64,000 nt of DNA from an uncultured Bacilli bacterium (GTDB lineage: Bacteria; Bacillota_I; Bacilli_A; RF39; UBA660), in contig CANPYM010000002.1 of the NCBI GenBank assembly GCA_947588685.1, positions 25,964 through 89,963 of the forward strand, read 5' to 3'. The stretch's first letter is position 1, and every line of letters starts with the position of its first letter. Positions 2,047-15,139 of this stretch are shown in pieces. The notes beneath the pieces were generated by a model. The model saw only the letters and a list, made by a program, of their open reading frames with translations, had not been told where the DNA came from and made no database searches. Both the position numbers and the translations under genes were made by a program.

Positions 2047-2736
2047 ATGATAGCATTGAATTATGACTTAGTTAAAAAGATTAAGAAACACCGTCTTGCC
2101 CTAAAACTTTCTAATCGGACTAGAATCGTCAAAGAAAAAAATCAAGCTTTTTATAAAAAACTTGGTACAGTTTGCGATAACGTCTTTGATGAAATAGATG
2201 TCGGCAATATCATCATTAGTAGTAAAGTTAGCGCGATAACATCATTTGTAATTTTAGCTGGTCTTATTAATAAGATATGCTTAAAACATATGGCAAAGGA
2301 ACAAATACCCATAGTTCTTATGACAGAGGGTAAAGCCGTTTTAGCTATTTTAGGCGGTATCGTAACGATTAATCTGGGATTACCTTTTGTCGCTTTGACT
2401 AGCAATTTAGCGCAAAAAAAGGTGGAGAAAACATTAATTGCTGCTCAAGAAAAAATGCATCATCCAAGCTTCCAATTAGATTTAACGAATCCACATAGTG
2501 AAATCTTGGCAACGAAAAGAAAAATTAAATTTCAAAAAAATCATCAAAAAATAAAAACACCGATTATAGAAAAACATATTTATTGTAGAGTATTTGACTA
2601 CAAAACTTCAAAGAAAAAATATGCTGAAGTTATTCAGGAACATAAATTAGGTACAAAAAAATATAAATTAACTTTTGGTGATGTGTATGATGCATCAGAA
2701 GAATGCATAACGCATCAAAAAGTAAAAAAAATGTAA
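2047..2736 (+). CDS. hypothetical protein, tandem paralog 3 of 4
   Basis: MIALNYDLVKKIKK...VIQEHKLGTKKYKL; RBS GGGGGGA before ATG. Confidence 0.55.
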   Translation: MIALNYDLVKKIKKHRLALKLSNRTRIVKEKNQAFYKKLGTVCDNVFDEIDVGNIIISSKVSAITSFVILAGLINKICLKHMAKEQIPIVLMTEGKAVLAILGGIVTINLGLPFVALTSNLAQKKVEKTLIAAQEKMHHPSFQLDLTNPHSEILATKRKIKFQKNHQKIKTPIIEKHIYCRVFDYKTSKKKYAEVIQEHKLGTKKYKLTFGDVYDASEECITHQKVKKM

Positions 2737-2749
2737 AGGAGAGATAAAA

Positions 2750-3349
2750 ATGATAATTAATTATAATTTATTTAAAAAGGTTCTTTCAACTAATCGTGCT
2801 TTTTCCTTATCAGGTTCAATTGCATGGGAAGGTTTCGATTTTGGTGAAGGATTATTTTCAAAAGATTTTTTTGAAGCTGTTGGTGCTCAAGAGTTTATCG
2901 TTGCTTTAGGATGCGTGGTAGTTCGTTTCATAAAGGATATTCATGCTGATTTCTATAGTGTTTTCATTACGGCATGTAAAGGTTGTTGGTATGTCTTCCT
3001 TGGAAATATTGGTATTGAGCTTTTGATAGATGCCATTACTGTTATAACAGATGTATCAAGTTCAATTGCTTATTACTTTAAAAAGAAAAGCCTTCCTAAA
3101 ATAGCTAAACAATTAGAGACATTAGGATGTCATATAACGGCGAATGATTTGTATGGTGCTGAATTTAGTTGGCCGCAATTTACATTACAACGTGAGGAAG
3201 AAAAAAGAACTAAAGTTTTAGTTACACGTACTATGAGTATTAATGATATAACTTTCATTCAAGAACATATTCTCGGAAGTAGAAAGTACAAAATCACTCG
3301 TGAGGGTTATAGTGAAGTTTTACCGGATAAAGTAAAAAAACTTAGTTAA
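2750..3349 (+). CDS. hypothetical protein, tandem paralog 4 of 4
   Basis: MIINYNLFKKV...FIQEHILGSRKYKI; RBS AAGGAGAG before ATG. Confidence 0.55.
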   Translation: MIINYNLFKKVLSTNRAFSLSGSIAWEGFDFGEGLFSKDFFEAVGAQEFIVALGCVVVRFIKDIHADFYSVFITACKGCWYVFLGNIGIELLIDAITVITDVSSSIAYYFKKKSLPKIAKQLETLGCHITANDLYGAEFSWPQFTLQREEEKRTKVLVTRTMSINDITFIQEHILGSRKYKITREGYSEVLPDKVKKLS

Positions 3350-3492: not shown

Positions 3493-3789
3493 ATGAAAGC
3501 TGTTATTGAAACAGGTGGAAAACAATACTACGTTGAAGAAGGATCTATTCTTTATGTTGAAAAGCTTGACGCTGAAGCTGGTAAAGAAGTTGTTTTTGAT
3601 AAGGTATTGATGCTAGATGGTAAAGCTGGTAACCCTTATATCAAAGGCGCTAAAGTTACGGCTGAAGTATTAAAGCATGGTAAAGCAAAAAAAGTTATCG
3701 TTTATAAATATAAACAAAAGAAGAATTATCATCGTACACAAGGACATCGTCAACCATACACCAAAGTTGAAATTAAGAAGATTAAGTAA
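3493..3789 (+). CDS. rplU: 50S ribosomal protein L21
   Basis: [25 protein letters not shown]... is the canonical L21 sequence. Confidence 0.95.
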
Positions 3790-3794
3790 TTAGT

Positions 3795-4100
3795 ATGATA
3801 AAAGTAGATGTTAAAAAGAAAGATGATGTAGTAAATTACATTAAGATATCAGGGCATTCAGAATATGCGGAAGCTGGTTTTGATATCGTTTGTGCCTCAG
3901 TATCTTCAATAGCGATTACGACAGTTAATGCTTTAGTTAGTATTAATGAGGACTGTCTTGTTTATAGTGAAGGTGAGGGCTTGTTAGAGATAGGTATTTT
4001 AATTCATGATGAAGTTATTGATAAATTAGTCACGAATATGTTAAATCTATTTAAAAACTTATCTCTAGATTATAAAGAATATATAAAACTTAATTATTAA
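3795..4100 (+). CDS. prp: ribosomal-processing cysteine protease Prp (YsxB family)
   Basis: Conserved position between rplU and rpmA. ~100 aa with GHSEYA...DIVCASVS motif. Confidence 0.85.
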
Positions 4101-4114
4101 GGGAGGTGCTCAGG

Positions 4115-4402
4115 ATGAAATTGATGAGATTGAATATCCAATTATTTGCCCACAAAAAAGGTCAAGGTTCAACTAAAAATGGACGTGACTCAATATCTAA
4201 AAGATTAGGAGCAAAAGCTGCTGATGGTGAACATGTATCTGGCGGTTCTATTTTATATCGTCAAAGAGGAACAAAGATTCATCCAGGTGTTAACGTAGGT
4301 ATTGGTTCTGATGATACTTTATACGCTAAAATTAGCGGATATGTAAAATTTGAACGTTTAGGAAAAGATAAAAAACAAGTAAGTATTTATCCTGAAGTAT
4401 AA
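4115..4402 (+). CDS. rpmA: 50S ribosomal protein L27 with cleavable N-terminal extension
   Basis: [11 protein letters not shown]|[15 protein letters not shown]... RBS GGGAGG at 4101-4106. The ORF track begins at GTG 4106; ATG 4115 is preferred. Confidence 0.93.
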
Positions 4403-4442: not shown

Positions 4443-5405
4443 TTAGCTAACTTTTCCTTTTAATACTTTACAAATAGTTTCAATACATTTTTGCTTTTGG
4501 GATAATCTTGGATGTACATAAAGATTTAAGGTTATATCAACGCTAGCATGACCCAATAATTCACTTACGGTTTTATAATCCGTTCCTGCGCTGATACAGT
4601 TAGTTGCAAAAGTATGACGAAGTGTATGAAACTTGAAATGATCTAGACCGATAAAATCAATTAATTTAGAAAAATAGCGACTATAAGAACGGGGTTCGAT
4701 AGGTTTAAGTTTACCAGATATTAGATAGCTATGAAGATTACTTGGTACATATTCTTTTAAAATATTTAAGATATCTTTACTAAGAGGAATATCGCGGTTG
4801 GCATTAATTGTTTTAGGCGAGGTGATGACTAATTTTGATAATGATCTATCTTCATCTTTAATATATATTCGCTGAATTGTTTTATTGATTGATATCGTTC
4901 CTTTTTTAAAATCGACATCTTCCCATTTCAAGGCACATACTTCGCCAATGCGAAGCCCTAAATACAATGATAATAAAATGCCAAGATTGCGATAATTCAT
5001 ATTATCAAGTAAATAATTAGTTAGAGTTACTTGTTCATCATAAGATAATACATATAAACGATTCGCCTGTTTCTTGTTAGGATAGGCGAATGTTAAATCG
5101 ATATAAGAAATGTATTTTTCACTCATCGCTTTTTTAAGGCTACTTTTAATAATGTTGGCAATATCTTTGATGGTCTTTAACGCTAACCCTGTCTTTTTAT
5201 TATCATCGGCTAAAGTTAGTAAAAAATCTTGAATTATTTTATGGGTAATATCTTCCAAATAATATTTTCCTAACATTGGAATAATATGGTTGAAAATATG
5301 GTTTGAGTAATTAGCATAGGTTGATTCTTTGACATAATTTTTCTTATCTTTAAGCCATTCACATATCCAGTTTTGGTAAAGTATTCTTTTTTTAAATATA
5401 ATCAT
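4443..5405 (-). CDS. tyrosine-type site-specific recombinase/integrase
   Basis: C-terminal HTLRHTFATNCISAGTD...LGHASVDITLNLYVHP (R..HxxR..Y catalytic region). Start moved to ATG 5405 (MIIFKK), preceded by AAAGGAGGA. Confidence 0.85.
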   Translation of the reverse strand: MIIFKKRILYQNWICEWLKDKKNYVKESTYANYSNHIFNHIIPMLGKYYLEDITHKIIQDFLLTLADDNKKTGLALKTIKDIANIIKSSLKKAMSEKYISYIDLTFAYPNKKQANRLYVLSYDEQVTLTNYLLDNMNYRNLGILLSLYLGLRIGEVCALKWEDVDFKKGTISINKTIQRIYIKDEDRSLSKLVITSPKTINANRDIPLSKDILNILKEYVPSNLHSYLISGKLKPIEPRSYSRYFSKLIDFIGLDHFKFHTLRHTFATNCISAGTDYKTVSELLGHASVDITLNLYVHPRLSQKQKCIETICKVLKGKVS

Positions 5406-5547
5406 ATTTCCTCCTTTCAAGGAATTTATTATATAAGAAGATTTAAAAGATTGGCGAGAGGAAAAAATTATGACATTTTTTTACAATTTACTTGTTTGCC
5501 AAATTAGAATATGTTAATATAATAATGTATAAGAAAGGAGTAAGATA

Positions 5548-8500
5548 ATGAAGAGATTATTTCGAAGTCTATTAGCTTTAGCGTTGATATTTGGTTTATA
5601 TGTACCACAAGTTTTAGCTTTCCCTCCTTTATTTAATGAACCAATTAGTATTTTAGCGGAAGCTGATAGTTTGCTAAGTACATCTTTAGAACAACCTTCA
5701 TTCGTTGGAACAGGTAACTTGGAACTTGATTTAAAGTTTAGTTTACCAATTAAAAATGTTGCTAATCCTAATATTAAAGTAACTCTTAAAGATAGTTCAA
5801 ATGCGTCTTTTACTATCAATCTAAATGATTATCCAACGATGACACGGGATAATTATACTTTAGGTGATCAAAAGGGCGAGTTTTCTATTCGTAAGATGGA
5901 AGTTGTTACTAAAGAAGACGGCAATATAAGCTATGAAGACGTTAAAAATGGCGTTGATAGTAGCGATGTTAAGTATTATGCGATGACCATTTATGGTTTG
6001 CGCCAAGGAACTTATAGTGTAACTTTATCTGGTAATGGTTATAAAGATTACACGGTTACTGGCATTAAACTAGATGATTACGCTAAACGTGTTACCATGT
6101 CAAATGATCGGGGATTATTTGAAGTGGGGGATGTCAATGGTGATAACGCTGTCGATGAAAAAGATATCGATGGTATTATTGCGCATATCGGTAGTAAAGA
6201 TGCCGCAGATTTAAATAAGTATGATTTAGATCGTGATGGCGAGATTCAAATTAACGATATGGCGATGGCAGCTTCTAGTATCAATGGCGAAGTTGAAAAA
6301 GTATCGATTGAAAATACGATGGCTATTATCAGTGCTGATAGCTTTAGCATTGATGAATCATCAACTTCTATCGATGGCGATATAGCTGATTTATTCACGC
6401 CAGATGGAAGTGTCGGAGTTCACCCAAGTGATACCGAAGCCGAAATATCTGAGGAAAATCCGGCTGTCATTTCCCTTGATATGAAAAAGCCTGTTGAAAT
6501 GGGTGAGATTAGAATTGAGACAGGACACGATAATGTGCCTGAAGAAATGACTGTTATCGTTTTAGATGAAAACGATAAAGAACACGAGTTTAAAGTTGCA
6601 AAACAACAAGTAGAAGCGATAGCGCATAAGTTTACGGATAAGAGTAGCGAAGGTACGATTGTTGTTGACTTAGAAGGTCAAATAGCTGTTAAAAAGGTAA
6701 CAATTAAAATCACGAAATCATCAGGTAAAAACTTAGCGGAAATCGCTGAAGTGGAATTCTTAAACAATGTTAAAGAAGATGTGGCTCCACCTGAAATAAA
6801 TATTCCAAGTGGCTTAAAAGCTAACTTAGGTAGTGAACAAGTAACCCTTACTTGGAATGGTATTCCAAACGTTACGGGATATGAAGTATTATTCCAAACT
6901 TTAGATACTAGTGGTAATGTCACAAAGAATGAAATCTTACAGACAACCTACACGAATTATACAATTGAAGATTTGAAAAATTACAAAGATTATCGCGCTG
7001 CTGTAAGAGGTGTTAATGGCGATTGGAAGGGTGCCTATAGTGCTGAAATAACTTTCCAACCCGAGGCTAGTAGAAAACCTCCAGCACCCGATATGGTTAA
7101 TGTAACACCAACTTTTGCCGGCTTAGATATTAGTTGGAAAGATATGAAAGATACCTTATCCTATAATATCTATTACCGAGCTTTAGGTGCTGAAGAGTTT
7201 GAAGAAATAAGAGAATACAAAGGAACAAGTTATAAACTACGTAACTTACTTCCATCAACGGCTTATGAAGTTTATATTTCTGGTAATAACCCAAATGGTG
7301 AAGGAGCTCGCTCATTAAAAGCTAGTGGCACGACCCTTGCTGAAGGCGCTGCTATTACCCCTAAATATAAATTAATTAATAAGTCTAATGGTGGCGATAT
7401 AACTAGTCATATTAAAGAAGTTGTATCAAGTCTAGGTACGATGTCTAACGGCGATAATACCGCTTTAGTTGATGATGATTTCCATACTTATTGGGAACAC
7501 AAAGATTGGCAAGTAAATGCAAGCGCTAACTATTCTTTTGGAGCACCAATAATTGTTCTAGATCAAGAATATACAATGGACCGTTTTGCTTTAACTATAC
7601 CTGATTCTTACACATTTAGTTATAAGGGTGGTTCTTATGATCCAACTAGTAGAGATTATAACGATGTTAAAGTCTTCTACTGGAGTGGTGATGATGTAAG
7701 ATCAACTCAAAATAGTATAGTGGTTCATGGTAAGCTAGAACTAAAAAAGGATAAGAATAATCGTTCTTATTATGTTTTAAAACTTCAAGAACCAATTAAA
7801 GCTAATGCTGTTCAATTTGGTCTTACTGTTGCTGGTAATACTAAATTAATTCAAATTAGTGAAGTAAAACTATATGAATATGATTCTATTGCTGACGAAG
7901 TTAATGCTTTATTCACGGATGATTTGCATTTAGTTTTAGCTGATGGTGTTAATGAAGCTCGTCTTAAAGCGTTAGAAGAACGTCTTAATACAGTTGATAA
8001 AGAAAGTGGTGAGTATCACCCAGATAAGGATGCTATTCAAGCTGATATTGACTATGCAAGACGTATCTTAAATGATGAAGATTTAAGTAAAGAAATTATT
8101 ACGGTTAACCAAAATATAACCGCTAAAAAACATACTGGCTTTAGTCAACTTAGTGAGTTACAACCATTAGGTATTGTTGCTCGCCCTGGTGAGACGATTA
8201 CCATTTATATGGGAACTGATACGAATGTACATCCACAAGTTGTCTTTACACAGTTCTATGCCGAAGCTGGTGGATGGAGTGTCACTAAAGGAAACCTTAA
8301 TAATGGCGCTAATGTTATTGAAGTACCAAAAGTAAACTCTATGGATGTTGATAAGGGTGGCGCTGTTTATATTAAGTATCCTAATTCAGCACCAACTAAA
8401 GGAACGATTAAGATTAGAGTTAGTGGTGGCGAAAGAATACCAATGCTAGATTTATATAGTAATCTATCTGATGAAGTTGAATCTAAGGCTATTATTAGTT

Positions 8501-10728
8501 CTTATCTAACAGATTTAAATAATTATGTTCAAAAGATTCGGGCAACCGATGGTTTTGATGAAAATCTTAGTGTTATTAACTCAACAGAAATAGGAACTAA
8601 GAATGCGTTATTCTCTGTTCCAGCTACTAAAGTATACGATAGTATTGTAAGTGGTATTGAAGGAGACACAACTGCTCAAATTAATCGTGTTTATAATTCG
8701 TTATTAGCGTTTGAAGAAATGATGACGATTTTCTATAATCATAAAGGTTTATCTTTAACGCCAGAAGAAAGTGTTGATATGGCCCCAGCATCAAGAATTA
8801 ACATTCGGGCAATGCGGATGTTTGATGGCGCATTTATGTATGCATCTGGGGATCACATCGGTATCGGTCAGGCATCAGTGCCTGGTTTAATGCAAGGTAT
8901 ACCAAATCAAGGTACGGGTGCTGATATGACAACAACCGGTTACTTTGGTTGGGGTATCAGCCATGAGATTGGTCACCAAATCAATCAAGGTAATTTAGCT
9001 CATGCTGAAGTTACTAACAATGTTTTTGCTTTACTTGCGCAAACAAGTGATGATAAAACCGCTCCTCGTATCGCTGATCGAATGGACCGCATTTATCAGA
9101 AAGTAACATCTAATACTTTGGGTAAAGGAACAGATGTCTTTGTTACTTTAGCAATGTATTGGCAATTACATTTAGCTTATGATGATGCTTATACTTTCAG
9201 TGATACAAACTCTATCTTTGCTAAAATAAATAAAGAGAGTAGAAGGGTAAATCAAGATGAAACATTAAAGAGTATGAGTAAAGATGAACTTCTTATTGCT
9301 CTTGCTAGTAAGGCATCTGGTTATGACCTTAGAGAATACTATCGTCATTGGGGACTTGCCTCAACAGAAAAAGTTGATAATTATATTGCTGGTCTAAATC
9401 TAAAGACAGAAGAAAGACCAATCTGGTATATCAATGATAATGCTAGAAGATATCGAATGAATGGTGGCGCTAAAACACCAGAGACGACATCAATTGTGGC
9501 TTTCTTATCTGAAGAAGACCCACAAAATAAACGTTATACTTTAACTTTCAATCCAATTGATGGCTCTGATAGTCGTTATATCTTGGGTTATGAAATTAAA
9601 CGTAATGGTGTACCAATTATGTTTACGACGGAAACGTCATTTACAGATGTTATTGGTGCTTTAAATAATCAAGCTCTTACATATGAAGTAACAGCTTATG
9701 ATATGTATTTAAAACCAACTAATACCGTTAAGTTAAAAGAAGTTAAAGTAAGACATGATGGAAGCATTAATAAAGAAGGCTTTACTATCGAGTCTAACTT
9801 CAAACATAATGGTGAAGTTGTAAGCTATGAAGATGAAAGTTTTGATAGCAAGAAATTAAGTGTTAATAATCTATTAGATGGAAAAAATAGTACCTTCATT
9901 GGTGATACGAGAATTTCTGATAAAGAAGTTGAAACAGTTGATAAGGGCGATGCTAGTATCATTATTGATTTAAATAGTGCAATGTCCGTATCAGGTATTG
10001 CTTATACGGCTGGTACTGATGAAAATGGCCTTTTAGCTAACACTATTTCTAAGTATGCTGTTTATGTAAGTAAAGATCGTAATACTTGGGATAAAGTAAA
10101 AGAAGGTACATTTGATTTTGAAAAATCTAAAGATTATAAAAATACCATTTATTTTGACAAAATAGGTACAACTGGTGGTAACCAATTATGGACTTATAAT
10201 GATATATCCTATATTAAGATTGTATCTGTCGGAAATACAAATGGTATAAGTGGTGCGGAAATAGATGTTATTGCTCCTCCAGGCGATAATGTTGAATTAG
10301 ATAATGTTGGTAAATTATCCAAAGATTATAAATATCAAGGCGAAGATGGAAGTGAGAAAACAATCGAAGCTGGCTCAATTGTCTTCACAGGTAATTATCG
10401 TGGTAATCCAACTTTCAACGTTATGTTGATGGTTGATGCTACCAATGCTGAAAAAGTCTTTGATGGTGAAAACTTCTTATTTGCTAAATTAACAGACGAT
10501 GGTACTGTAAGTGAAACTTATGATGGTACTTGGTTCTATGTTGTTAGTAAAGAAACTTATGAAGATATGTGTAAGGGTAGTGTTAGAGCCGAATTATATC
10601 GGGTAAATGATCCACATACTAATGATGGTGAACGCCTTACAAGTACATCACTTTCCCTAAGTGATTTAGCAGCATATGAAGAACTTCCAGATTTAAATAT
10701 TGTTGACTCTACTAAGGAGGTTTCATAG
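5548..10728 (+). CDS. large secreted multidomain protein: type-I dockerin + FN3 repeats + M60-like (enhancin-like) zinc metallopeptidase + discoidin/CBM32-like C-terminus
   Basis: Signal peptide MKRLFRSLLALALIFGLYVPQVLA. Duplicated Ca-loop DVNGDNAVDEKD / DLDRDGEIQIND (~6127-6275). HEIGHQINQGNLAHAE = HExxHx10E (8961-8975). Confidence 0.8.
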   Translation: MKRLFRSLLALALIFGLYVPQVLAFPPLFNEPISILAEADSLLSTSLEQPSFVGTGNLELDLKFSLPIKNVANPNIKVTLKDSSNASFTINLNDYPTMTRDNYTLGDQKGEFSIRKMEVVTKEDGNISYEDVKNGVDSSDVKYYAMTIYGLRQGTYSVTLSGNGYKDYTVTGIKLDDYAKRVTMSNDRGLFEVGDVNGDNAVDEKDIDGIIAHIGSKDAADLNKYDLDRDGEIQINDMAMAASSINGEVEKVSIENTMAIISADSFSIDESSTSIDGDIADLFTPDGSVGVHPSDTEAEISEENPAVISLDMKKPVEMGEIRIETGHDNVPEEMTVIVLDENDKEHEFKVAKQQVEAIAHKFTDKSSEGTIVVDLEGQIAVKKVTIKITKSSGKNLAEIAEVEFLNNVKEDVAPPEINIPSGLKANLGSEQVTLTWNGIPNVTGYEVLFQTLDTSGNVTKNEILQTTYTNYTIEDLKNYKDYRAAVRGVNGDWKGAYSAEITFQPEASRKPPAPDMVNVTPTFAGLDISWKDMKDTLSYNIYYRALGAEEFEEIREYKGTSYKLRNLLPSTAYEVYISGNNPNGEGARSLKASGTTLAEGAAITPKYKLINKSNGGDITSHIKEVVSSLGTMSNGDNTALVDDDFHTYWEHKDWQVNASANYSFGAPIIVLDQEYTMDRFALTIPDSYTFSYKGGSYDPTSRDYNDVKVFYWSGDDVRSTQNSIVVHGKLELKKDKNNRSYYVLKLQEPIKANAVQFGLTVAGNTKLIQISEVKLYEYDSIADEVNALFTDDLHLVLADGVNEARLKALEERLNTVDKESGEYHPDKDAIQADIDYARRILNDEDLSKEIITVNQNITAKKHTGFSQLSELQPLGIVARPGETITIYMGTDTNVHPQVVFTQFYAEAGGWSVTKGNLNNGANVIEVPKVNSMDVDKGGAVYIKYPNSAPTKGTIKIRVSGGERIPMLDLYSNLSDEVESKAIISSYLTDLNNYVQKIRATDGFDENLSVINSTEIGTKNALFSVPATKVYDSIVSGIEGDTTAQINRVYNSLLAFEEMMTIFYNHKGLSLTPEESVDMAPASRINIRAMRMFDGAFMYASGDHIGIGQASVPGLMQGIPNQGTGADMTTTGYFGWGISHEIGHQINQGNLAHAEVTNNVFALLAQTSDDKTAPRIADRMDRIYQKVTSNTLGKGTDVFVTLAMYWQLHLAYDDAYTFSDTNSIFAKINKESRRVNQDETLKSMSKDELLIALASKASGYDLREYYRHWGLASTEKVDNYIAGLNLKTEERPIWYINDNARRYRMNGGAKTPETTSIVAFLSEEDPQNKRYTLTFNPIDGSDSRYILGYEIKRNGVPIMFTTETSFTDVIGALNNQALTYEVTAYDMYLKPTNTVKLKEVKVRHDGSINKEGFTIESNFKHNGEVVSYEDESFDSKKLSVNNLLDGKNSTFIGDTRISDKEVETVDKGDASIIIDLNSAMSVSGIAYTAGTDENGLLANTISKYAVYVSKDRNTWDKVKEGTFDFEKSKDYKNTIYFDKIGTTGGNQLWTYNDISYIKIVSVGNTNGISGAEIDVIAPPGDNVELDNVGKLSKDYKYQGEDGSEKTIEAGSIVFTGNYRGNPTFNVMLMVDATNAEKVFDGENFLFAKLTDDGTVSETYDGTWFYVVSKETYEDMCKGSVRAELYRVNDPHTNDGERLTSTSLSLSDLAAYEELPDLNIVDSTKEVS

Positions 10729-10729
10729 A

Positions 10730-11587
10730 ATGAAGAAAATGATGTTAACTTGCTTTGCAGTTACATCTTTCTTCCTATGCTTAATGGTTACACATGCGAC
10801 AACCTTAAATCGCGAAAGTAGTAGTAATGGCGAAGTTAAACTATCCTTAACGGTTGATGAAGGATATGTTGGCGGTATTGATGTAACATTAAAAATATCA
10901 GGGGATGTAACTTATAGTAATTTTACTTGGGATACTTCATTTAGTAAGTATGTTAAGAAAAATATATATAATGAAAATAATAAAGAATTAAGCCTTTATG
11001 TCGCAACCGGTAGTACTAGTAAAAATTTAGCTAATGATAAACGTAATATCCCACTAGGAACGATGAAAGTAAGTTCTAGTAAAGATACAAAGTACAATAT
11101 TACAGTTAGTAAATTAGTTCTTACCGATATGGATTATAAATATATTACAAAAACCGATGTAACTAATAATCCTGATAGCGAATTAACTTTTAAAAAGACG
11201 AATAGTTCTAATTCAAATAGTAACTCTAGTAGCAACTCCAATAGTAATTCTAGTTCTAGTGGAAATAGTGGATCTAGTTCTAGTGGAGGAACTAGTAGTG
11301 GTACAACATCAAATAGTAGTTCAACACAAAGTACAGGAAGTACATCATCTAATGTTACGAGTAATAATTCATCATTAAATAGTAATACTATAGATGATCA
11401 ACCTAGTAACACGTCCAAAGATGATACTATAACTAGTAACAATGATAAAGAAAATATTGAAAGTACTAAAGAAGAAGTAAAAGATAAAAAACGTAATAGT
11501 AACGCTATTGCGATTGTATCTTTCTGTATCTTAGTTGTCGTTGCGGCTTGTCTCATCTTATGGCGAAGTATAACTAAAATGAAATAG
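10730..11587 (+). CDS. cell-surface protein: signal peptide + cohesin-like beta domain + Ser/Asn-rich linker + C-terminal TM anchor
   Basis: MKKMMLTCFAVTSFFLCLMVTHA signal peptide. ~130-aa beta-rich domain (VKLSLTVDEGYVGGIDVTLKISGDV...FTWDTSF...LSLYVATGST). (S/N)n low-complexity linker. C-terminal AIAIVSFCILVVVAACLILW + RS. RBS AAGGAGG. Confidence 0.6.
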   Translation: MKKMMLTCFAVTSFFLCLMVTHATTLNRESSSNGEVKLSLTVDEGYVGGIDVTLKISGDVTYSNFTWDTSFSKYVKKNIYNENNKELSLYVATGSTSKNLANDKRNIPLGTMKVSSSKDTKYNITVSKLVLTDMDYKYITKTDVTNNPDSELTFKKTNSSNSNSNSSSNSNSNSSSSGNSGSSSSGGTSSGTTSNSSSTQSTGSTSSNVTSNNSSLNSNTIDDQPSNTSKDDTITSNNDKENIESTKEEVKDKKRNSNAIAIVSFCILVVVAACLILWRSITKMK

Positions 11588-11617
11588 AGAAAAGGATTTA
11601 TCTTTTCTCTTTTTTTG
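11586..11617 (+). terminator. rho-independent terminator
   Basis: AGAGAAAAG-GATTTAT-CTTTTCTCT followed by T7. Confidence 0.65.
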
Positions 11618-12620: not shown

Positions 12621-12792
12621 AAGTGTCAAAATGACACACTAGATAAAAAATCAAAAAAATTAAAAATTAAAAAATGTAAAGAAATAAAAAAACTAAATTA
12701 TTGAAAAATAATACATAAAGGTAACATCATTAAAAAACCACTCAAAAAGTGATCAAAAAGTATTGCATTCTGTCTAAAATGAAGAGTATAAT
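12621..12792 (+). promoter_or_regulatory. nrd upstream control region: two inverted repeats (NrdR-box-like) and promoter TTGCAT-18-TATAAT
   Basis: GTGTCA-aaa-TGACAC at 12623-12637. CACTC-aaaa-AGTG at 12746-12758, immediately upstream of the -35. TATAAT at 12787-12792. Confidence 0.35.
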
Positions 12793-12823
12793 CAAATTAG
12801 ATAGTAGGAGGTCAAGTAAGGAT

Positions 12824-15139
12824 ATGTCAGATTCATACAACAAGATAACATTAGACGTAATTAAAAGAAATGGAAAAAAAGTATCCTTTGATGCTAGTAA
12901 AATAGCCCTAGCTATTAAAAAAGGTTTTGATAGCGTTGTTACAGTATCAAATGATGCCGAAGGCGAAGAAAAGAAAGTATACACCGGTGAGGATATCAAT
13001 AAAGTATATCTCGGCGTTATTAAGAGTATTGAGAAAAAATATAAAGATGAAACCAGAATTAAAATTGAAGAGATTCAAGATTTAATTGAACAAGAATTAG
13101 AGAAACAAGGTTATGATGATGTTTATAAATCATTCTCTGAGTATCGGGAACGTCGTAACCAATCAAGAGCTTTGTTTGCTGATGATAAAAAGATTCACAA
13201 GTTTTTAAAAACCCTTGAAGGACTAGGGTTAAAATCAGCAACCGAAGATGATACTAAAAGAGAAAATGCTAATATCGATGGCGATAGCGCTATGGGTACC
13301 ATGCTTCAATATGGTAGTACTGTTTCTAAGGAGTTTGCTAAAGCATACTTAATGAAAAAAAGATTTTCAATGGCTCATGATGAAGGAGATATCCACATTC
13401 ATGATATGGATTTCTTAGCTATGGGTACAACTACTTGTATGCAAATTGAACTTGATAAACTATTTAAGAAAGGTTTTTCAACCGGTCATGGTCATTTAAG
13501 AACACCAGCTAGTATTGGTTCATATAGTGCGTTAGCAGCAATTGCTATTCAGTCTAACCAAAACGATCAACATGGTGGACAATCAATTCCGGCATTCGAT
13601 TATTATATGGCTCCAGGTGTTATTAAGACCTTTAAAAAAGAGTTTAAACAACAAATATATGATTTGTTAGATTATATGGATTTACTTTCATTTATCAATA
13701 TGGATAGAGTTGTTAAAGAAATTGATAAATTGACATCAATCGAATTTGATATTGAAAGATTTGAACCTATTTATAATAATTCAGCATCTATCAAAAGATT
13801 GTTTGTTAAGTCATATGAAAAAGCTTTAGCTAAGACAAATCGTCAAACTTATCAAGCTATGGAAGCTTTTGTTCATAACTTAAATACGATGCATTCAAGA
13901 GCAGGAGCGCAAGTACCATTTTCATCTGTTAACTTTGGTACGGATACGAGCGCTGAAGGAAGAATGGTTATTAAAAACTTCCTAGAGGCTACAGAAGCTG
14001 GTCTCGGTAAAGGTGAAACACCAATCTTCCCAGTATCTATTTTCAAGGTTAAGGAAGGTGTTAACTATAATCCGGGTGATCCTAACTATGATTTATTTAA
14101 GTTAGCTTGCCGAGTTTCAGCTAAAAGATTATTCCCTAACTTCTCTTTCTTAGATGCTCCATTTAACTTGGAATATTATAAAGAAGGCGATTACCGCACA
14201 GAAGTTGGTTATATGGGATGTCGTACGAGAGTTATGGCTGATGTAACTGATGTTAATAATCAAACAACTGGTGGTCGTGGTAATTTATCATTTACTTCTA
14301 TTAACTTACCAAGGTTAGGTATAAAACATGGTATTTGCTTAAAAGAACGTGATAAAGCTGATATGAAAGGCTTCTATAAGGATTTAGGCGAAATGATGGA
14401 TTTAGTTCGTGATCAATTACTTGAACGTTTTGAAATCCAATGTAGTAAAAGAGTTTATAACTTCCCATTCTTGTTAGGCTCTGGTGTTTGGACTGATGGT
14501 GATAAGCTAAAACCAACTGATCGCTTACGGAAGATTTTAAAACACGGGACTTTAACAATTGGTTTTATCGGCCTTGCTGAAACGCTTAAAGCTTTAATTG
14601 GTAAACATCATGGTGAGAGTGAAGAAGCTCAAAAATTAGGTTTGGAAATAATTACCTTTATGCGTAAAAGATGCAACGAATATTGTAAAGAATACAACTT
14701 AAACTTTACTTTAATTGCAACCCCAGCTGAAGGCTTGTCAGGACGCTTTGTAGCGATTGATAAAGCAATCTATGGACGGATTAAAGGTGTAACAGATAGA
14801 AATTATTATACGAATTCTTTCCACGTTCCTGTTTACTATAATATTAGTATTAAGGATAAGATTATGAAAGAAGCTCCATATCATAATTTAACTAATGGTG
14901 GACATATTTCTTACATTGAGTTAGATGGTGATACGGTTCAAAATGTTGAAGCTTTCGAGAAAGTAATTCGTTTAATGAAAGAAGCAGGTATTGGTTATGG
15001 TGCAATTAACCACCCTGTTGATCGTGATCCTGTATGTGGATACGTTGGGGTTATTGGTGATGTTTGTCCAGGATGTGGACGTAAAGAGTTTGATAGTGTA
15101 CCACTAGAAGAAGTAAAATCCCTTAATTGTGGATGTTAG
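12824..15139 (+). CDS. nrdD: anaerobic ribonucleoside-triphosphate reductase (class III) large polypeptide, ending after the Zn-ribbon and lacking the glycyl-radical segment
   Basis: ATP-cone N-terminus, class III RNR core, C-terminal CPGCG...NCGC then TAG. Start placed at ATG 12824 after TAGGAGG. Confidence 0.85.
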   Translation: MSDSYNKITLDVIKRNGKKVSFDASKIALAIKKGFDSVVTVSNDAEGEEKKVYTGEDINKVYLGVIKSIEKKYKDETRIKIEEIQDLIEQELEKQGYDDVYKSFSEYRERRNQSRALFADDKKIHKFLKTLEGLGLKSATEDDTKRENANIDGDSAMGTMLQYGSTVSKEFAKAYLMKKRFSMAHDEGDIHIHDMDFLAMGTTTCMQIELDKLFKKGFSTGHGHLRTPASIGSYSALAAIAIQSNQNDQHGGQSIPAFDYYMAPGVIKTFKKEFKQQIYDLLDYMDLLSFINMDRVVKEIDKLTSIEFDIERFEPIYNNSASIKRLFVKSYEKALAKTNRQTYQAMEAFVHNLNTMHSRAGAQVPFSSVNFGTDTSAEGRMVIKNFLEATEAGLGKGETPIFPVSIFKVKEGVNYNPGDPNYDLFKLACRVSAKRLFPNFSFLDAPFNLEYYKEGDYRTEVGYMGCRTRVMADVTDVNNQTTGGRGNLSFTSINLPRLGIKHGICLKERDKADMKGFYKDLGEMMDLVRDQLLERFEIQCSKRVYNFPFLLGSGVWTDGDKLKPTDRLRKILKHGTLTIGFIGLAETLKALIGKHHGESEEAQKLGLEIITFMRKRCNEYCKEYNLNFTLIATPAEGLSGRFVAIDKAIYGRIKGVTDRNYYTNSFHVPVYYNISIKDKIMKEAPYHNLTNGGHISYIELDGDTVQNVEAFEKVIRLMKEAGIGYGAINHPVDRDPVCGYVGVIGDVCPGCGRKEFDSVPLEEVKSLNCGC

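What the first reader, a model, noticed from the sequence alone, without database searches (positions are those of the whole stretch)
5548..11587. Dockerin-bearing M60-like zinc peptidase followed by a cohesin-like membrane-anchored partner
The 1726-aa secreted protein carries a canonical type-I dockerin duplicated Ca-binding segment (DVNGDNAVDEKD...DLDRDGEIQIND), FN3-like repeats and an HExxHx10E motif (HEIGHQINQGNLAHAE) typical of M60-like/enhancin-like O-glycopeptidases (mucinases). Its C-terminus resembles discoidin/CBM32. The next gene has a signal peptide, a ~130-aa beta-rich module with a cohesin-like strand pattern, a Ser/Asn-rich linker and a C-terminal TM anchor. The arrangement suggests a dedicated cohesin–dockerin pair that tethers a mucin-type peptidase to the cell surface, a mini-cellulosome logic applied to a protease. 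This points to a host-associated (gut/mucosal) lifestyle.
Basis: partly seen in the sequence, partly recalled or inferred. Interest (0 to 1): 0.65.

Follow-up and report, generated by a model that had tools for sequence, protein, structure and literature searches.

The report
Surface-tethered mucin-type peptidase, two-gene module
A gut bacterium encodes a large secreted glycoprotein-cutting (M60-like) peptidase next to a small membrane protein whose tip has the fold of the peptidase's likely docking partner, and this pair, probably a way to hold the enzyme on the cell surface, recurs in many gut Bacillota although standard sequence models do not recognise the partner.

Summary
Window 5548-11587 is a two-gene operon.

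**Gene 1 (1726 aa).** It is a secreted M60-like zinc peptidase, closest among solved structures to Clostridium perfringens ZmpB. It has two FN3 domains, an F5/8-type-C domain and a two-loop dockerin.

**Gene 2 (285 aa).** It has a signal peptide, a 133-residue beta domain, a 102-residue Ser/Asn-rich stalk and a C-terminal membrane helix. No Pfam or PDB sequence model recognises the beta domain. Its AlphaFold model matches cohesins only (top 36 Foldseek hits).

**N-terminus of gene 1.** It models as one rigid unit, and its ten best matches are all type II X-module-dockerin dyads. Many of these come from the same crystal complexes that gene 2 matches.

**Comparative evidence.**
- The pair is adjacent in all 24 species-representative loci of uncultured gut Bacilli, while the flanking genes vary.
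- In six Clostridia loci, the enzyme's homologues are followed by a partner with a homologous N-terminal domain. Its stalk and anchor differ; most carry sortase-type C-terminal signals.
- In four other homologues a related domain lies in the enzyme polypeptide itself (clear in two), and no partner gene follows.

**Conclusion.** The best reading is a dedicated type-II-like cohesin-XDoc tether for a glycopeptidase. Physical binding is not shown. I class it as a new variant of a known kind.

The parts
5496..5523 (+). Promoter-like site (TTGCCA-16-TATAAT), about 25 nt upstream of the ORF1 start
   Evidence: 11 of 12 matches, the best + strand site in the region. It is a consensus match only; the number of sites found was no higher than in shuffled sequence.
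5548..10728 (+). ORF1: secreted 1726-aa multidomain M60-like zinc peptidase
5548..5619 (+). Sec-type signal peptide (MKRLFRSLLALALIFGLYVPQVLA)
   Evidence: Read from the sequence. The cleavage site is inferred.
5710..6102 (+). X-module-like beta-sandwich (residues ~55-185), packed against the dockerin
   Evidence: AF2 model of residues 45-262, pLDDT 91.2, pTM 0.87; the ten best PDB hits are type II X-dockerin chains. Weak PEGA and CarboxypepD_reg hits.
6115..6291 (+). Dockerin (residues ~190-248) with two 12-residue Ca-binding loops (195-206 and 226-237) and three helices
   Evidence: Dockerin_1 21.7 bits against a 22.9 cut-off; orthologues 33.9 and 24.3 bits; loop positions 1, 3, 5 and 12 conserved in 93-100% of 29 orthologues; helices at model residues 160-167, 175-181 and 191-202.
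6805..7362 (+). Two fibronectin type III domains (residues ~420-605)
   Evidence: fn3 60.4 bits, two stretches.
7900..9744 (+). Region homologous to the crystallised core of C. perfringens ZmpB (residues 785-1399). It includes M60-like_N (851-958) and the catalytic domain.
   Evidence: 5kdj E 1.3e-25, 5kdn 2.6e-24, ZmpC 6xsz 5.5e-23, ZmpA 6xsx 1.1e-13. Peptidase_M60 55.8 bits; M60-like_N 20.9 bits, below its cut-off of 23.
8962..9009 (+). Zinc-binding motif HEIGHQINQGNLAHAE (HExxH followed 10 residues later by Glu), residues 1139-1154
   Evidence: One search gives the position. One search aligns it residue for residue with HELGHNFDTGGRTIVE of ZmpB.
9847..10158 (+). F5/8 type C (discoidin / CBM32-like) domain, residues 1434-1537
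   Evidence: 34.3 bits (cut-off 28.2); F5_F8_type_C_2 32.9 bits.
10714..10720 (+). Ribosome-binding site AAGGAGG for ORF2, inside the 3' end of ORF1. The ORF1 stop is TAG at 10726-10728.
10730..11587 (+). ORF2: 285-aa single-pass membrane protein with an N-terminal cohesin-fold domain
10730..10798 (+). Signal peptide of ORF2 (MKKMMLTCFAVTSFFLCLMVTHA)
   Evidence: Read from the sequence. The profile match begins at residues ~24-30 in nearly all family members.
10799..11197 (+). Cohesin-fold domain (residues 24-156)
   Evidence: pLDDT 87.8, pTM 0.82, all-beta; top 36 PDB hits all cohesins, E from 2.5e-5, TM 0.51-0.64. No Pfam or PDB sequence hit.
11198..11503 (+). Low-complexity Ser/Asn/Thr-rich stalk, 102 residues
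   Evidence: Family median linker is 103 residues. Its length differs between near-identical strains.
11504..11584 (+). C-terminal transmembrane helix (AIAIVSFCILVVVAACLILW) and basic tail RSITKMK, with no LPXTG motif
   Evidence: In the family, 92 of 98 full-length members have this ending and one has LPKTG.
11586..11610 (+). Terminator-like hairpin followed by a T run, directly after the ORF2 stop

Best explanation
Window 5548-11587 is a bicistronic operon for a surface-displayed O-glycopeptidase.

Gene 1 is exported by the Sec pathway. It is a ZmpB-type M60-like gluzincin, carried on FN3 and discoidin-like carbohydrate-binding modules. It has no anchor of its own. Directly after its signal peptide sits a beta-sandwich packed against a two-loop Ca-binding dockerin. 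Together these resemble the X-module-dockerin (XDoc) dyads of type II cellulosomal anchoring.

Gene 2 is probably translationally coupled to gene 1. It is a single-pass membrane protein that holds one cohesin-fold domain on a stalk of about 100 Ser/Asn-rich residues. That length could plausibly span the cell wall.

The cohesin-fold domain most likely binds the XDoc dyad 1:1 in a Ca-dependent way. This would keep the peptidase on the producer's surface while it cleaves mucin-type glycoproteins.

Shown here: domain homologies, both predicted folds, operon signals, conserved adjacency, homologous partners in Clostridia, and fusion proteins.

Inferred: the physical contact, its Ca dependence, the membrane topology, and the substrate.
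For: Enzyme:
- Pfam Peptidase_M60 at 55.8 bits, and an HExxH-x10-E motif aligned to ZmpB.

Dockerin:
- Ca-ligand positions are 93-100% conserved in 29 orthologues sharing 31-64% identity.
- Pfam Dockerin_1 is above cut-off in orthologues.

XDoc dyad:
- The model of residues 45-262 has pLDDT 91.2 and pTM 0.87.
- Its ten best PDB hits are all XDoc-bearing chains: 4wi0_B, 4u3s_B, 5k39_B, 2b59_B, 5g5d_B, 3kcp_A, 5m0y_B and three chains of 4fl4.

Cohesin fold:
- The top 36 hits are cohesins. They include 4u3s_A, 4wi0_A, 2b59_A, 5k39_A, 5g5d_A and 5m0y_A, the partner chains of the complexes that ORF1 hits.

Operon:
- A ribosome-binding site lies inside ORF1, the gap between the genes is 1 nt, and a terminator-like hairpin follows ORF2.

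Synteny:
- In all 28 fetched loci (24 species-representative hits plus other copies of the same gene pair) the partner gene directly follows a full-length orthologue.
- The flanking genes fall into 77 clusters, none present in more than 5 loci.

Clostridia:
- Six of six unfused homologues are followed by a partner gene.
- The partners' N-terminal domains are homologous to the ORF2 domain: hhalign probability 95.9%, E 5.6e-9.
- They end in LPITG, LPATG, LPQTG or xxTGD-type sorting signals or a membrane helix.

Fusions:
- P0214 and P0211 carry the domain in cis (E 3e-10 and 6e-18). P0222, P0220 and P0224 match weakly or marginally.
- No partner gene follows the four fusion proteins whose loci were fetched: P0214, P0211, P0224 and P0220.

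Family architecture:
- 92 of 98 full-length members have a C-terminal helix and a basic tail.
Against: - No interaction was computed or measured.
- The cohesin assignment rests on fold only. TM-scores are 0.51-0.64 and identity is 9-15%. Pfam Cohesin hits none of 49 members, and a family profile finds no PDB sequence.
- The cohesin model was built from only three sequences.
- Window ORF1 scores just under the Dockerin_1 cut-off.
- The fusion proteins keep both the N-terminal dockerin and the cohesin-like domain. If the contact served only as a tether, both would be redundant there. The contact may therefore do something else, or the domain may bind another part of the enzyme.
- Only 64 kb of the genome was seen, so other cohesins or dockerins in the same organism cannot be excluded.
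Confidence: 0.68

Rival explanations
1. ORF2 does associate with the enzyme, but not through the dockerin. Its beta domain binds, or structurally continues, the C-terminal part of ORF1. The N-terminal XDoc-like dyad engages a different cohesin encoded elsewhere, or mediates oligomerisation.
For: In the fusion proteins the cohesin-like domain directly follows the C-terminal region of the enzyme, and the N-terminal dockerin is kept. Some fusions add a second, canonical C-terminal dockerin (P0211, P0224). Dockerins in this lineage can therefore address other partners.
Against: The two modules independently hit opposite chains of the same type II Coh-XDoc crystal complexes. The window holds no other dockerin- or cohesin-like ORF. 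Dockerin helix 3 and the Ca ligands are strongly conserved alongside the partner gene.
Confidence: 0.15
2. ORF2 is an independent surface protein, such as an adhesin or a substrate-binding protein. Its beta-sandwich only resembles cohesins. It is co-transcribed with the peptidase because both act on the same host substrate, without binding each other.
For: There is no sequence-level cohesin signal. TM-scores are moderate. Other beta-sandwiches (YcnI, a CLIPPER domain) appear lower in the list.
Against: ORF1 has no anchor of its own. The pair is adjacent in all 28 Bacilli loci and all six unfused Clostridia loci despite shuffled flanks. Gene fusions exist. All 36 best fold hits are cohesins.
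Confidence: 0.1
3. The dockerin-like segment is only a structural Ca-binding element of the enzyme's N-terminal domain and has no protein partner. Dockerin-like sequences occur in many genomes that lack cohesins (from my own knowledge of the field).
For: The window protein falls just below the Dockerin_1 cut-off, and EF-hand models also hit weakly. The dyad is kept in fusion proteins that are anchored by SLH repeats.
Against: Helix 3, the usual contact helix, is more conserved than helix 1 or the linker: mean column entropy 1.36 against 2.27 and 2.45. A cohesin-fold partner is always present, either in trans or in cis.
Confidence: 0.07

Closest known systems
Type II cohesin-XDoc anchoring of cellulosomes (C. 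thermocellum CipA XDoc with SdbA/ScaA/ScaC cohesins; A. cellulolyticus ScaA XDoc with ScaB Coh3; PDB 2b59, 5k39, 5g5d, 5m0y, 3kcp, 4fl4, 4u3s, 4wi0)
   Same: A beta-sandwich immediately N-terminal to a two-loop dockerin, modelled as one rigid unit. A partner with a cohesin fold sits on a cell-surface anchor. Both modules here hit the two chains of these very complexes.
   Different: Here the dyad is at the N-terminus of an enzyme, not at the C-terminus of a scaffoldin. The cohesin is single and on a membrane helix rather than SLH repeats. It is invisible to PF00963. The cargo is one peptidase, not a multi-enzyme scaffold. There is no detectable sequence homology to these proteins.
Clostridium perfringens non-cellulosomal cohesin-dockerin complexes (NagH-NagJ, PDB 2ozn; cohesin-like modules 2jh2, 2w1n, 2vo8) and its M60-like peptidases ZmpA/B/C
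   Same: A host-glycan-degrading Firmicute uses Coh-Doc contacts outside cellulose degradation. ZmpB is the closest solved relative of the catalytic core. The C. perfringens cohesin modules are among the fold hits, and 2ozn_B matches the dockerin at 28% identity.
   Different: There the modules sit on glycoside hydrolases and link enzymes to each other. No dedicated adjacent membrane anchor for an M60 peptidase is described in the papers I could search.
Mucinolysome of Limousia (PMC12997984, 2026)
   Same: Cohesin-dockerin logic applied to mucin degradation in animal guts. Dockerin-bearing peptidases are part of that system.
   Different: That system uses multi-cohesin scaffoldins with many dockerin-bearing CAZymes and a sortase-anchored scaffoldin, mostly detected with the Pfam cohesin and dockerin models (a few weak modules escape them). 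Here there is a 1:1 enzyme-anchor operon, no scaffoldin, and a divergent cohesin. The term M60 does not occur in that paper's main text.
Ruminococcus flavefaciens ScaE (from my own knowledge): a single-cohesin, sortase-anchored protein that binds XDoc dyads of ScaB and CttA
   Same: A one-cohesin anchoring protein receiving an XDoc dyad. The Clostridia partners found here likewise end in sortase-type signals.
   Different: ScaE anchors a scaffoldin and an adhesin, not an enzyme encoded directly upstream. The window protein uses a membrane helix.
Sequence-divergent cohesin families found by structure in Ruminococcus (PMC13463774, 2026)
   Same: Cohesin folds that sequence models miss and that are recognised only through AlphaFold models (abstract).
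   Different: Those belong to cellulosome or amylosome scaffoldins in Ruminococcus. This family is a single-domain anchor paired with an M60 peptidase in uncultured Bacilli and several Clostridia.
M60-like/PF13402 domain survey (Nakjang et al. 2012, PMC3267712)
   Same: It records that PF00404 dockerin co-occurs with M60-like domains in 2 proteins, and links the family to mucosal microbes.
   Different: The text passages I retrieved describe no partner protein, cohesin or operon.

Membership tests
Peptidase M60-like (Pfam PF13402; gluzincin O-glycopeptidases such as ZmpB) | Family HMM above the curated cut-off | tested here: met
   55.8 bits against 25.8. The match covers profile positions 117-275 of 275.
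Peptidase M60-like (Pfam PF13402; gluzincin O-glycopeptidases such as ZmpB) | HExxH zinc motif with a downstream Glu ligand | tested here: met
   HEIGHQINQGNLAHAE at residues 1139-1154, aligned to HELGHNFDTGGRTIVE of ZmpB.
Peptidase M60-like (Pfam PF13402; gluzincin O-glycopeptidases such as ZmpB) | Homology to solved M60-like structures across the catalytic core | tested here: met
   5kdj E 1.3e-25 over residues 785-1399. Also ZmpC, ZmpA and 4fca.
Peptidase M60-like (Pfam PF13402; gluzincin O-glycopeptidases such as ZmpB) | N-terminal accessory domain M60-like_N (PF17291) | tested here: inconclusive
   20.9 bits against a cut-off of 23. The region does align to ZmpB.
Peptidase M60-like (Pfam PF13402; gluzincin O-glycopeptidases such as ZmpB) | Cleavage of O-glycosylated (mucin-type) proteins | not testable with these tools
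   Needs an enzyme assay.
Dockerin (Pfam PF00404) | Two 12-residue Ca-binding loops with Asp/Asn at positions 1, 3, 5 and 12, each followed by a helix | tested here: met
   for the loops and their conservation. for the three helices in the model.
Dockerin (Pfam PF00404) | Family HMM above the curated cut-off | tested here: inconclusive
   Window protein 21.7 bits against 22.9. The orthologous segment scores 33.9 and 24.3 bits in two orthologues and 13.5-22.7 in others. Precomputed PF00404 hits are listed for many homologues.
Dockerin (Pfam PF00404) | Ca-dependent binding to a cohesin | not testable with these tools
Biophysics is needed.
Type II-like X-module-dockerin dyad | Beta-sandwich module directly N-terminal to the dockerin and packed against it | tested here: met
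   pTM 0.87 for the two-module model; ranks 1-10 are all XDoc chains, TM normalised to the target 0.55-0.64 for the isolated dyads. This is fold-level evidence only.
Type II-like X-module-dockerin dyad | Sequence homology to known X modules | tested here: not met
   phmmer of ORF1 against PDB finds no XDoc chain. Pfam gives only weak PEGA and CarboxypepD_reg hits.
Cohesin (Pfam PF00963) | Family HMM match | tested here: not met
   None of 49 family members hits it at E <= 1. No hit for ORF2. A family profile finds no PDB cohesin sequence.
Cohesin (Pfam PF00963) | Cohesin beta-sandwich fold of about 130-170 residues | tested here: met
   model pLDDT 87.8 with ten beta elements; top 36 Foldseek hits all cohesins (types I, II and III, C. 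perfringens, A. fulgidus), E 2.5e-5 to 2.5e-4, TM 0.51-0.64.
Cohesin (Pfam PF00963) | Binds a dockerin | not testable with these tools
   Only indirect evidence: adjacency in all 28 Bacilli loci and all six unfused Clostridia loci, and fusion proteins.
Cellulosome / mucinolysome (scaffoldin-based multi-enzyme complex) | Scaffoldin with several cohesins, and several dockerin-bearing enzymes | tested here: not met
   ORF2 has one cohesin-fold domain. The window holds only one dockerin-bearing ORF and one cohesin-like ORF. The rest of the genome was not available.
Sortase-anchored surface protein | LPXTG-type motif before the C-terminal hydrophobic segment and basic tail | tested here: not met
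   ORF2 has none. In the family, one of 98 has LPKTG and two have near-motifs. Clostridia partners do carry LPITG, LPATG or LPQTG.

The most novel reading that the evidence does not exclude
A cohesin family that current sequence models miss defines a conserved module found widely in gut Bacillota. The module pairs an XDoc-bearing M60 glycopeptidase with a one-cohesin adaptor. The adaptor's anchor has been exchanged repeatedly: membrane helix, sortase signal, SLH repeats, or a second dockerin that could plug into a larger complex. The adaptor is encoded either next to the enzyme or fused to it. In the fused forms, keeping both modules would imply ring closure or head-to-tail polymerisation of the enzyme on the cell surface. 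That would be a mode of cohesin-dockerin use not described for peptidases.
Probability: 0.45. Interest if true: 0.7.

Novelty: new variant of a known kind. Interest (0 to 1): 0.58.

Why it matters
M60-like O-glycopeptidases are central to how gut bacteria attack mucins. How Gram-positive commensals keep these enzymes at their surface is poorly documented.

If the pairing is real, it gives three things:
- a simple, testable 1:1 display system for a mucinase;
- a family of about 100 clusters of cohesin-fold domains that Pfam-based surveys of cohesin-dockerin systems would not count;
- a natural series of anchor swaps and gene fusions that could show how such systems evolve and connect to larger complexes.

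It also supplies a compact Coh-XDoc pair that might be useful for protein display.

Tried and rejected
- **Complex prediction.** I built 20 paired cohesin-linker-dockerin chimeras. The interface was therefore not modelled.
- **Locus search.** The 49-sequence alignment was too diverse for the locus search. The 3-sequence alignment was used instead.
- **Comparison with a recalled cohesin.** This has low value because that sequence is unverified.
- **PDB sequence searches.** Searches with family profiles found no meaningful hits.
- **Mobile element check.** I looked for direct repeats that could mark an inserted element around the integrase plus operon. Only short chance-level matches appeared.
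- **Anchor exclusivity.** I first thought SLH-anchored homologues would lack the dockerin, which would show that the two anchoring devices exclude each other. They keep it, so that argument was dropped. The cis fusion was found instead.
- **Covariation.** I considered a covariation or mirror-tree test on about 22 pairs and rejected it. It would be underpowered and confounded by shared descent.
- **Lipoprotein reading of ORF2.** Rejected: no lipobox is seen (FFLC, read from the sequence).


Full report
**What is in the window.** The region holds two co-oriented ORFs. ORF1 runs 5548-10728 (1726 aa). The ORF2 frame opens at a TTG at 10700, but its likely start is ATG 10730. That ATG lies one base after the ORF1 TAG stop and 9 nt after an AAGGAGG site that sits inside the end of ORF1. 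The best + strand promoter-like site lies at 5496-5523. A hairpin with a T run at 11586-11610 directly follows the ORF2 stop. These are consensus matches only, but together they fit a two-gene transcription unit. Neighbours are ordinary chromosomal genes: a Prp protease gene between two short ORFs that I read as ribosomal proteins L21 and L27, then fpg and nrdD. A phage-integrase-family gene lies on the opposite strand directly upstream. G+C is about 30-36% throughout.

**ORF1 is an M60-like peptidase.** Pfam gives Peptidase_M60 at 55.8 bits (cut-off 25.8), fn3 at 60.4 bits in two stretches, and F5_F8_type_C at 34.3 bits at residues 1434-1537. M60-like_N (20.9 bits against 23) and Dockerin_1 (21.7 against 22.9) fall just under their cut-offs. 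A sequence search of PDB finds C. perfringens ZmpB over residues 785-1399 (5kdj, E 1.3e-25), followed by ZmpC, ZmpA and 4fca. HEIGHQINQGNLAHAE (residues 1139-1154) aligns to the ZmpB zinc motif. The N-terminus looks like a Sec signal peptide. No hydrophobic C-terminal segment or LPXTG motif is seen.

**The dockerin belongs to an X-module-dockerin-like unit.** The two loops (195-206 and 226-237) are present in every orthologue whose N-terminus was recovered; in two of them the first loop departs from the strict pattern. In 29 orthologues sharing 31-64% identity, loop positions 1, 3, 5 and 12 are 93-100% conserved. The helix after loop 2 is more conserved than the helix after loop 1, with mean column entropy 1.36 against 2.27. 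Dockerin_1 passes its cut-off in some orthologues at 33.9 and 24.3 bits. An AlphaFold2 model of residues 45-262, built on that alignment, has pLDDT 91.2 and pTM 0.87. It shows a beta-sandwich followed by three helices. Its ten best Foldseek hits in PDB are all X-module-dockerin chains of type II complexes: 4wi0_B, 4u3s_B, 5k39_B, 2b59_B, 5g5d_B, 3kcp_A, 5m0y_B and three chains of 4fl4 (E 5e-5 to 1e-3). The first unrelated hit is about four times weaker in E-value than the tenth. 'Canonical type I' is therefore not the best label. The module resembles the dyads that anchor scaffoldins to cells. That functional description is my own knowledge of the field.

**ORF2 has a cohesin fold that sequence models do not see.** ORF2 has a signal peptide, a 133-residue domain, a 102-residue linker (37 Ser, 20 Asn, 13 Thr), a hydrophobic helix and the tail RSITKMK. 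Pfam and NCBIfam find nothing credible. PDB sequence searches with 3- and 49-sequence profiles find nothing relevant. None of 49 family members hits Pfam Cohesin at E <= 1. The AlphaFold2 model of the domain comes from a 3-sequence alignment, with pLDDT 87.8 and pTM 0.82, and is all-beta. Its top 36 Foldseek hits in PDB are all cohesins. They span types I, II and III, the C. perfringens cohesin-like modules and the A. fulgidus cohesin. E-values run from 2.5e-5, TM-scores are 0.51-0.64 and identity is 9-15%. YcnI appears only from rank 37. Among the hits are 4u3s_A, 4wi0_A, 2b59_A, 5k39_A, 5g5d_A and 5m0y_A. These are the cohesin chains of the same complexes whose XDoc chains ORF1 matches. Two independent models thus point at the two halves of one known interaction.

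**The ORF2 family.** An exhaustive profile search finds 101 cluster representatives. Nearly all are 250-370 aa with the domain at residues ~24-160. Of 98 full-length members, 92 end in a hydrophobic helix with a short basic tail. The median linker is 103 residues, rich in N, S, E, D and T. One member has LPKTG. The family is therefore a membrane-anchored protein with one cohesin-fold domain on a long flexible stalk. The neighbouring genes in one locus include a penicillin-binding protein, an FtsW/RodA-family protein and a Glycos_transf_4-family enzyme. These organisms therefore probably have a cell wall that such a stalk could span; this last step is inference.

**The pair is a conserved unit.**
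- A scan of one genome per species returned 24 loci. All are MAGs titled uncultured Bacilli or Tenericutes, and many are labelled 'Lapin'. One (L005) is 100% identical to the window's ORF2 domain.
- In all 28 loci then held, the cohesin-like gene lies directly after a full-length orthologue of ORF1, with the genes overlapping or at most a few codons apart. These 28 are the 24 scan hits plus four loci fetched earlier, some of them copies of the same region.
- The flanking genes form 77 clusters, none present in more than 5 loci. The pair is thus the only constant.
- Within the window there is no other ORF with the double-loop dockerin motif and no other cohesin-like ORF.

**The module extends to Clostridia, with different anchors.**
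- ORF1 has full-length homologues at 31-35% identity whose source names include Clostridium tertium, Sellimonas, Ruminococcus, Oscillospiraceae and Clostridiales.
- In six of six unfused loci examined, a gene follows within 0-60 nt.
- These partners have a signal peptide, an N-terminal beta domain of about 130 residues, and a variable stalk: Ig-like repeats, six FIVAR repeats, or Thr- or Pro/Gly-rich linkers.
- They end in LPITG, LPATG or LPQTG, in xxTGD-type motifs followed by a helix and basic tail, or in a membrane helix. In one locus a sortase gene lies next to the partner.
- Pfam does not recognise their N-terminal domains.
- A profile of the six domains matches the ORF2 family profile at 95.9% probability, E 5.6e-9, over 96 columns.

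**Fusion proteins.**
- Homologues with SLH repeats keep the N-terminal dockerin.
- They also carry the cohesin-like domain inside the same polypeptide, after the enzyme body and before the anchoring module.
- Evidence by protein: P0214 residues 1787-1884 (E 3e-10 with the ORF2 family profile); P0211 residues 1784-1878 (E 6e-18 with the Clostridia profile); P0208, P0222 and P0220 weaker; P0224 marginal.
- P0211 and P0224 end in a second, canonical-looking dockerin.
- None of the four fusion loci has a partner gene downstream.
- The domain is thus encoded either next to the enzyme or within it. This is classical evidence for a functional link.

**Mechanism.** The most economical reading has three steps. 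The enzyme is secreted. Its XDoc-like dyad then binds the cohesin-fold tip of ORF2 in a Ca-dependent 1:1 complex. The stalk and membrane helix hold the peptidase just outside the wall, where its FN3 and discoidin-like modules and catalytic core act on mucin-type glycoproteins. The 1-nt gene spacing would favour matched expression. The folds, homologies, operon signals, synteny and fusions are shown. The contact itself, its Ca dependence, the topology and the substrate are inferred. I put this reading at about 0.68.

**What does not fit neatly.** If the contact were only a tether, fusion proteins would not need to keep both modules, yet they do. The contact may close the protein into a ring or link molecules head to tail. 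Alternatively, the cohesin-like domain may bind another part of the enzyme. I could not test this.

**Comparison with what is known.**
- Cohesin-dockerin use outside cellulose degradation is established. C. perfringens complexes appear among the fold hits.
- Mucin-directed cohesin-dockerin complexes with dockerin-bearing peptidases were described in Limousia in 2026.
- Co-occurrence of PF00404 with M60-like domains was tabulated in 2012.
- Cohesins invisible to sequence models were reported in Ruminococcus in 2026.
- In four full-text searches I found no paper describing this enzyme-plus-adjacent-anchor module, this cohesin-fold family, or its fusions. The searchable library is incomplete, so this is not proof of absence.
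- The system fails the defining features of a scaffoldin-based complex. By sequence it also fails Pfam Cohesin membership. It works like a type II Coh-XDoc anchor. I therefore class it as a new variant of a known kind.

Noticed in passing
window 4443-5420 (-): A phage-integrase-family tyrosine recombinase (Phage_integrase 97.5 bits plus SAM-like N-domain) sits between rpmA and the peptidase operon on the opposite strand. Among the other loci its homologue was seen only in L005, the window's own species. ORF1 has slightly higher G+C (0.35-0.36) than its surroundings (0.30-0.32). No flanking direct repeats were found. The operon may have arrived here by insertion.
   Followed up: partly
window 11198-11503 (ORF2 linker); tandem 24-nt copies at 11240-11287: The Ser/Asn stalk varies in length between near-identical proteins (285, 290 and 293 aa; P0001-P0003). 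It contains short tandem DNA repeats. This suggests that repeat slippage changes stalk length between strains.
   Followed up: partly
P0214 (L031 5001-11411), P0211 (L036 3501-9797), P0224 (L037), P0220 (L038): In Clostridia homologues the enzyme polypeptide also contains the cohesin-like domain. This is clear for P0214 and P0211, weak for P0220 and marginal for P0224. An SLH module or a second C-terminal dockerin follows, and the N-terminal dockerin is kept. Why both modules persist in one chain is unexplained.
   Followed up: partly
L034 9342-11125: The partner gene after a homologue labelled Ruminococcus sp. is called as two ORFs, split within a Thr-rich stretch. The second ORF ends in LPQTG plus a helix. 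A sortase gene follows immediately. This may be an assembly or frameshift artefact in the repeat.
   Followed up: no
window 3493-4402 (+): An rplU / Prp cysteine protease / rpmA cluster. Prp is supported by Pfam at 72 bits. L27 starts with an N-terminal extension ([19 protein letters not shown]), the kind that Prp removes in Firmicutes (my own knowledge).
   Followed up: partly
window 12749-15139 (+): An anaerobic ribonucleotide reductase NrdD (633 bits). It fits an anaerobic gut organism.
   Followed up: partly
window 2047-2736 and 2750-3349 (+): Two adjacent ORFs of 229 and 199 aa with no Pfam match at E <= 0.001.
   Followed up: no
P0084 (ORF2 family member): One of 98 family members has a canonical LPKTG before its C-terminal helix. 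A switch between membrane and sortase anchoring may therefore also occur inside the Bacilli family.
   Followed up: no
window 7471-7500 (ORF1 residues 642-651) and residues ~296-402: ORF1 has two further regions that look discoidin-like. One is the DDDFHTYWEH motif, which recurs in orthologues. The other is a sub-threshold F5_F8_type_C hit at residues ~296-402. The last ~190 residues have no family match.
   Followed up: partly
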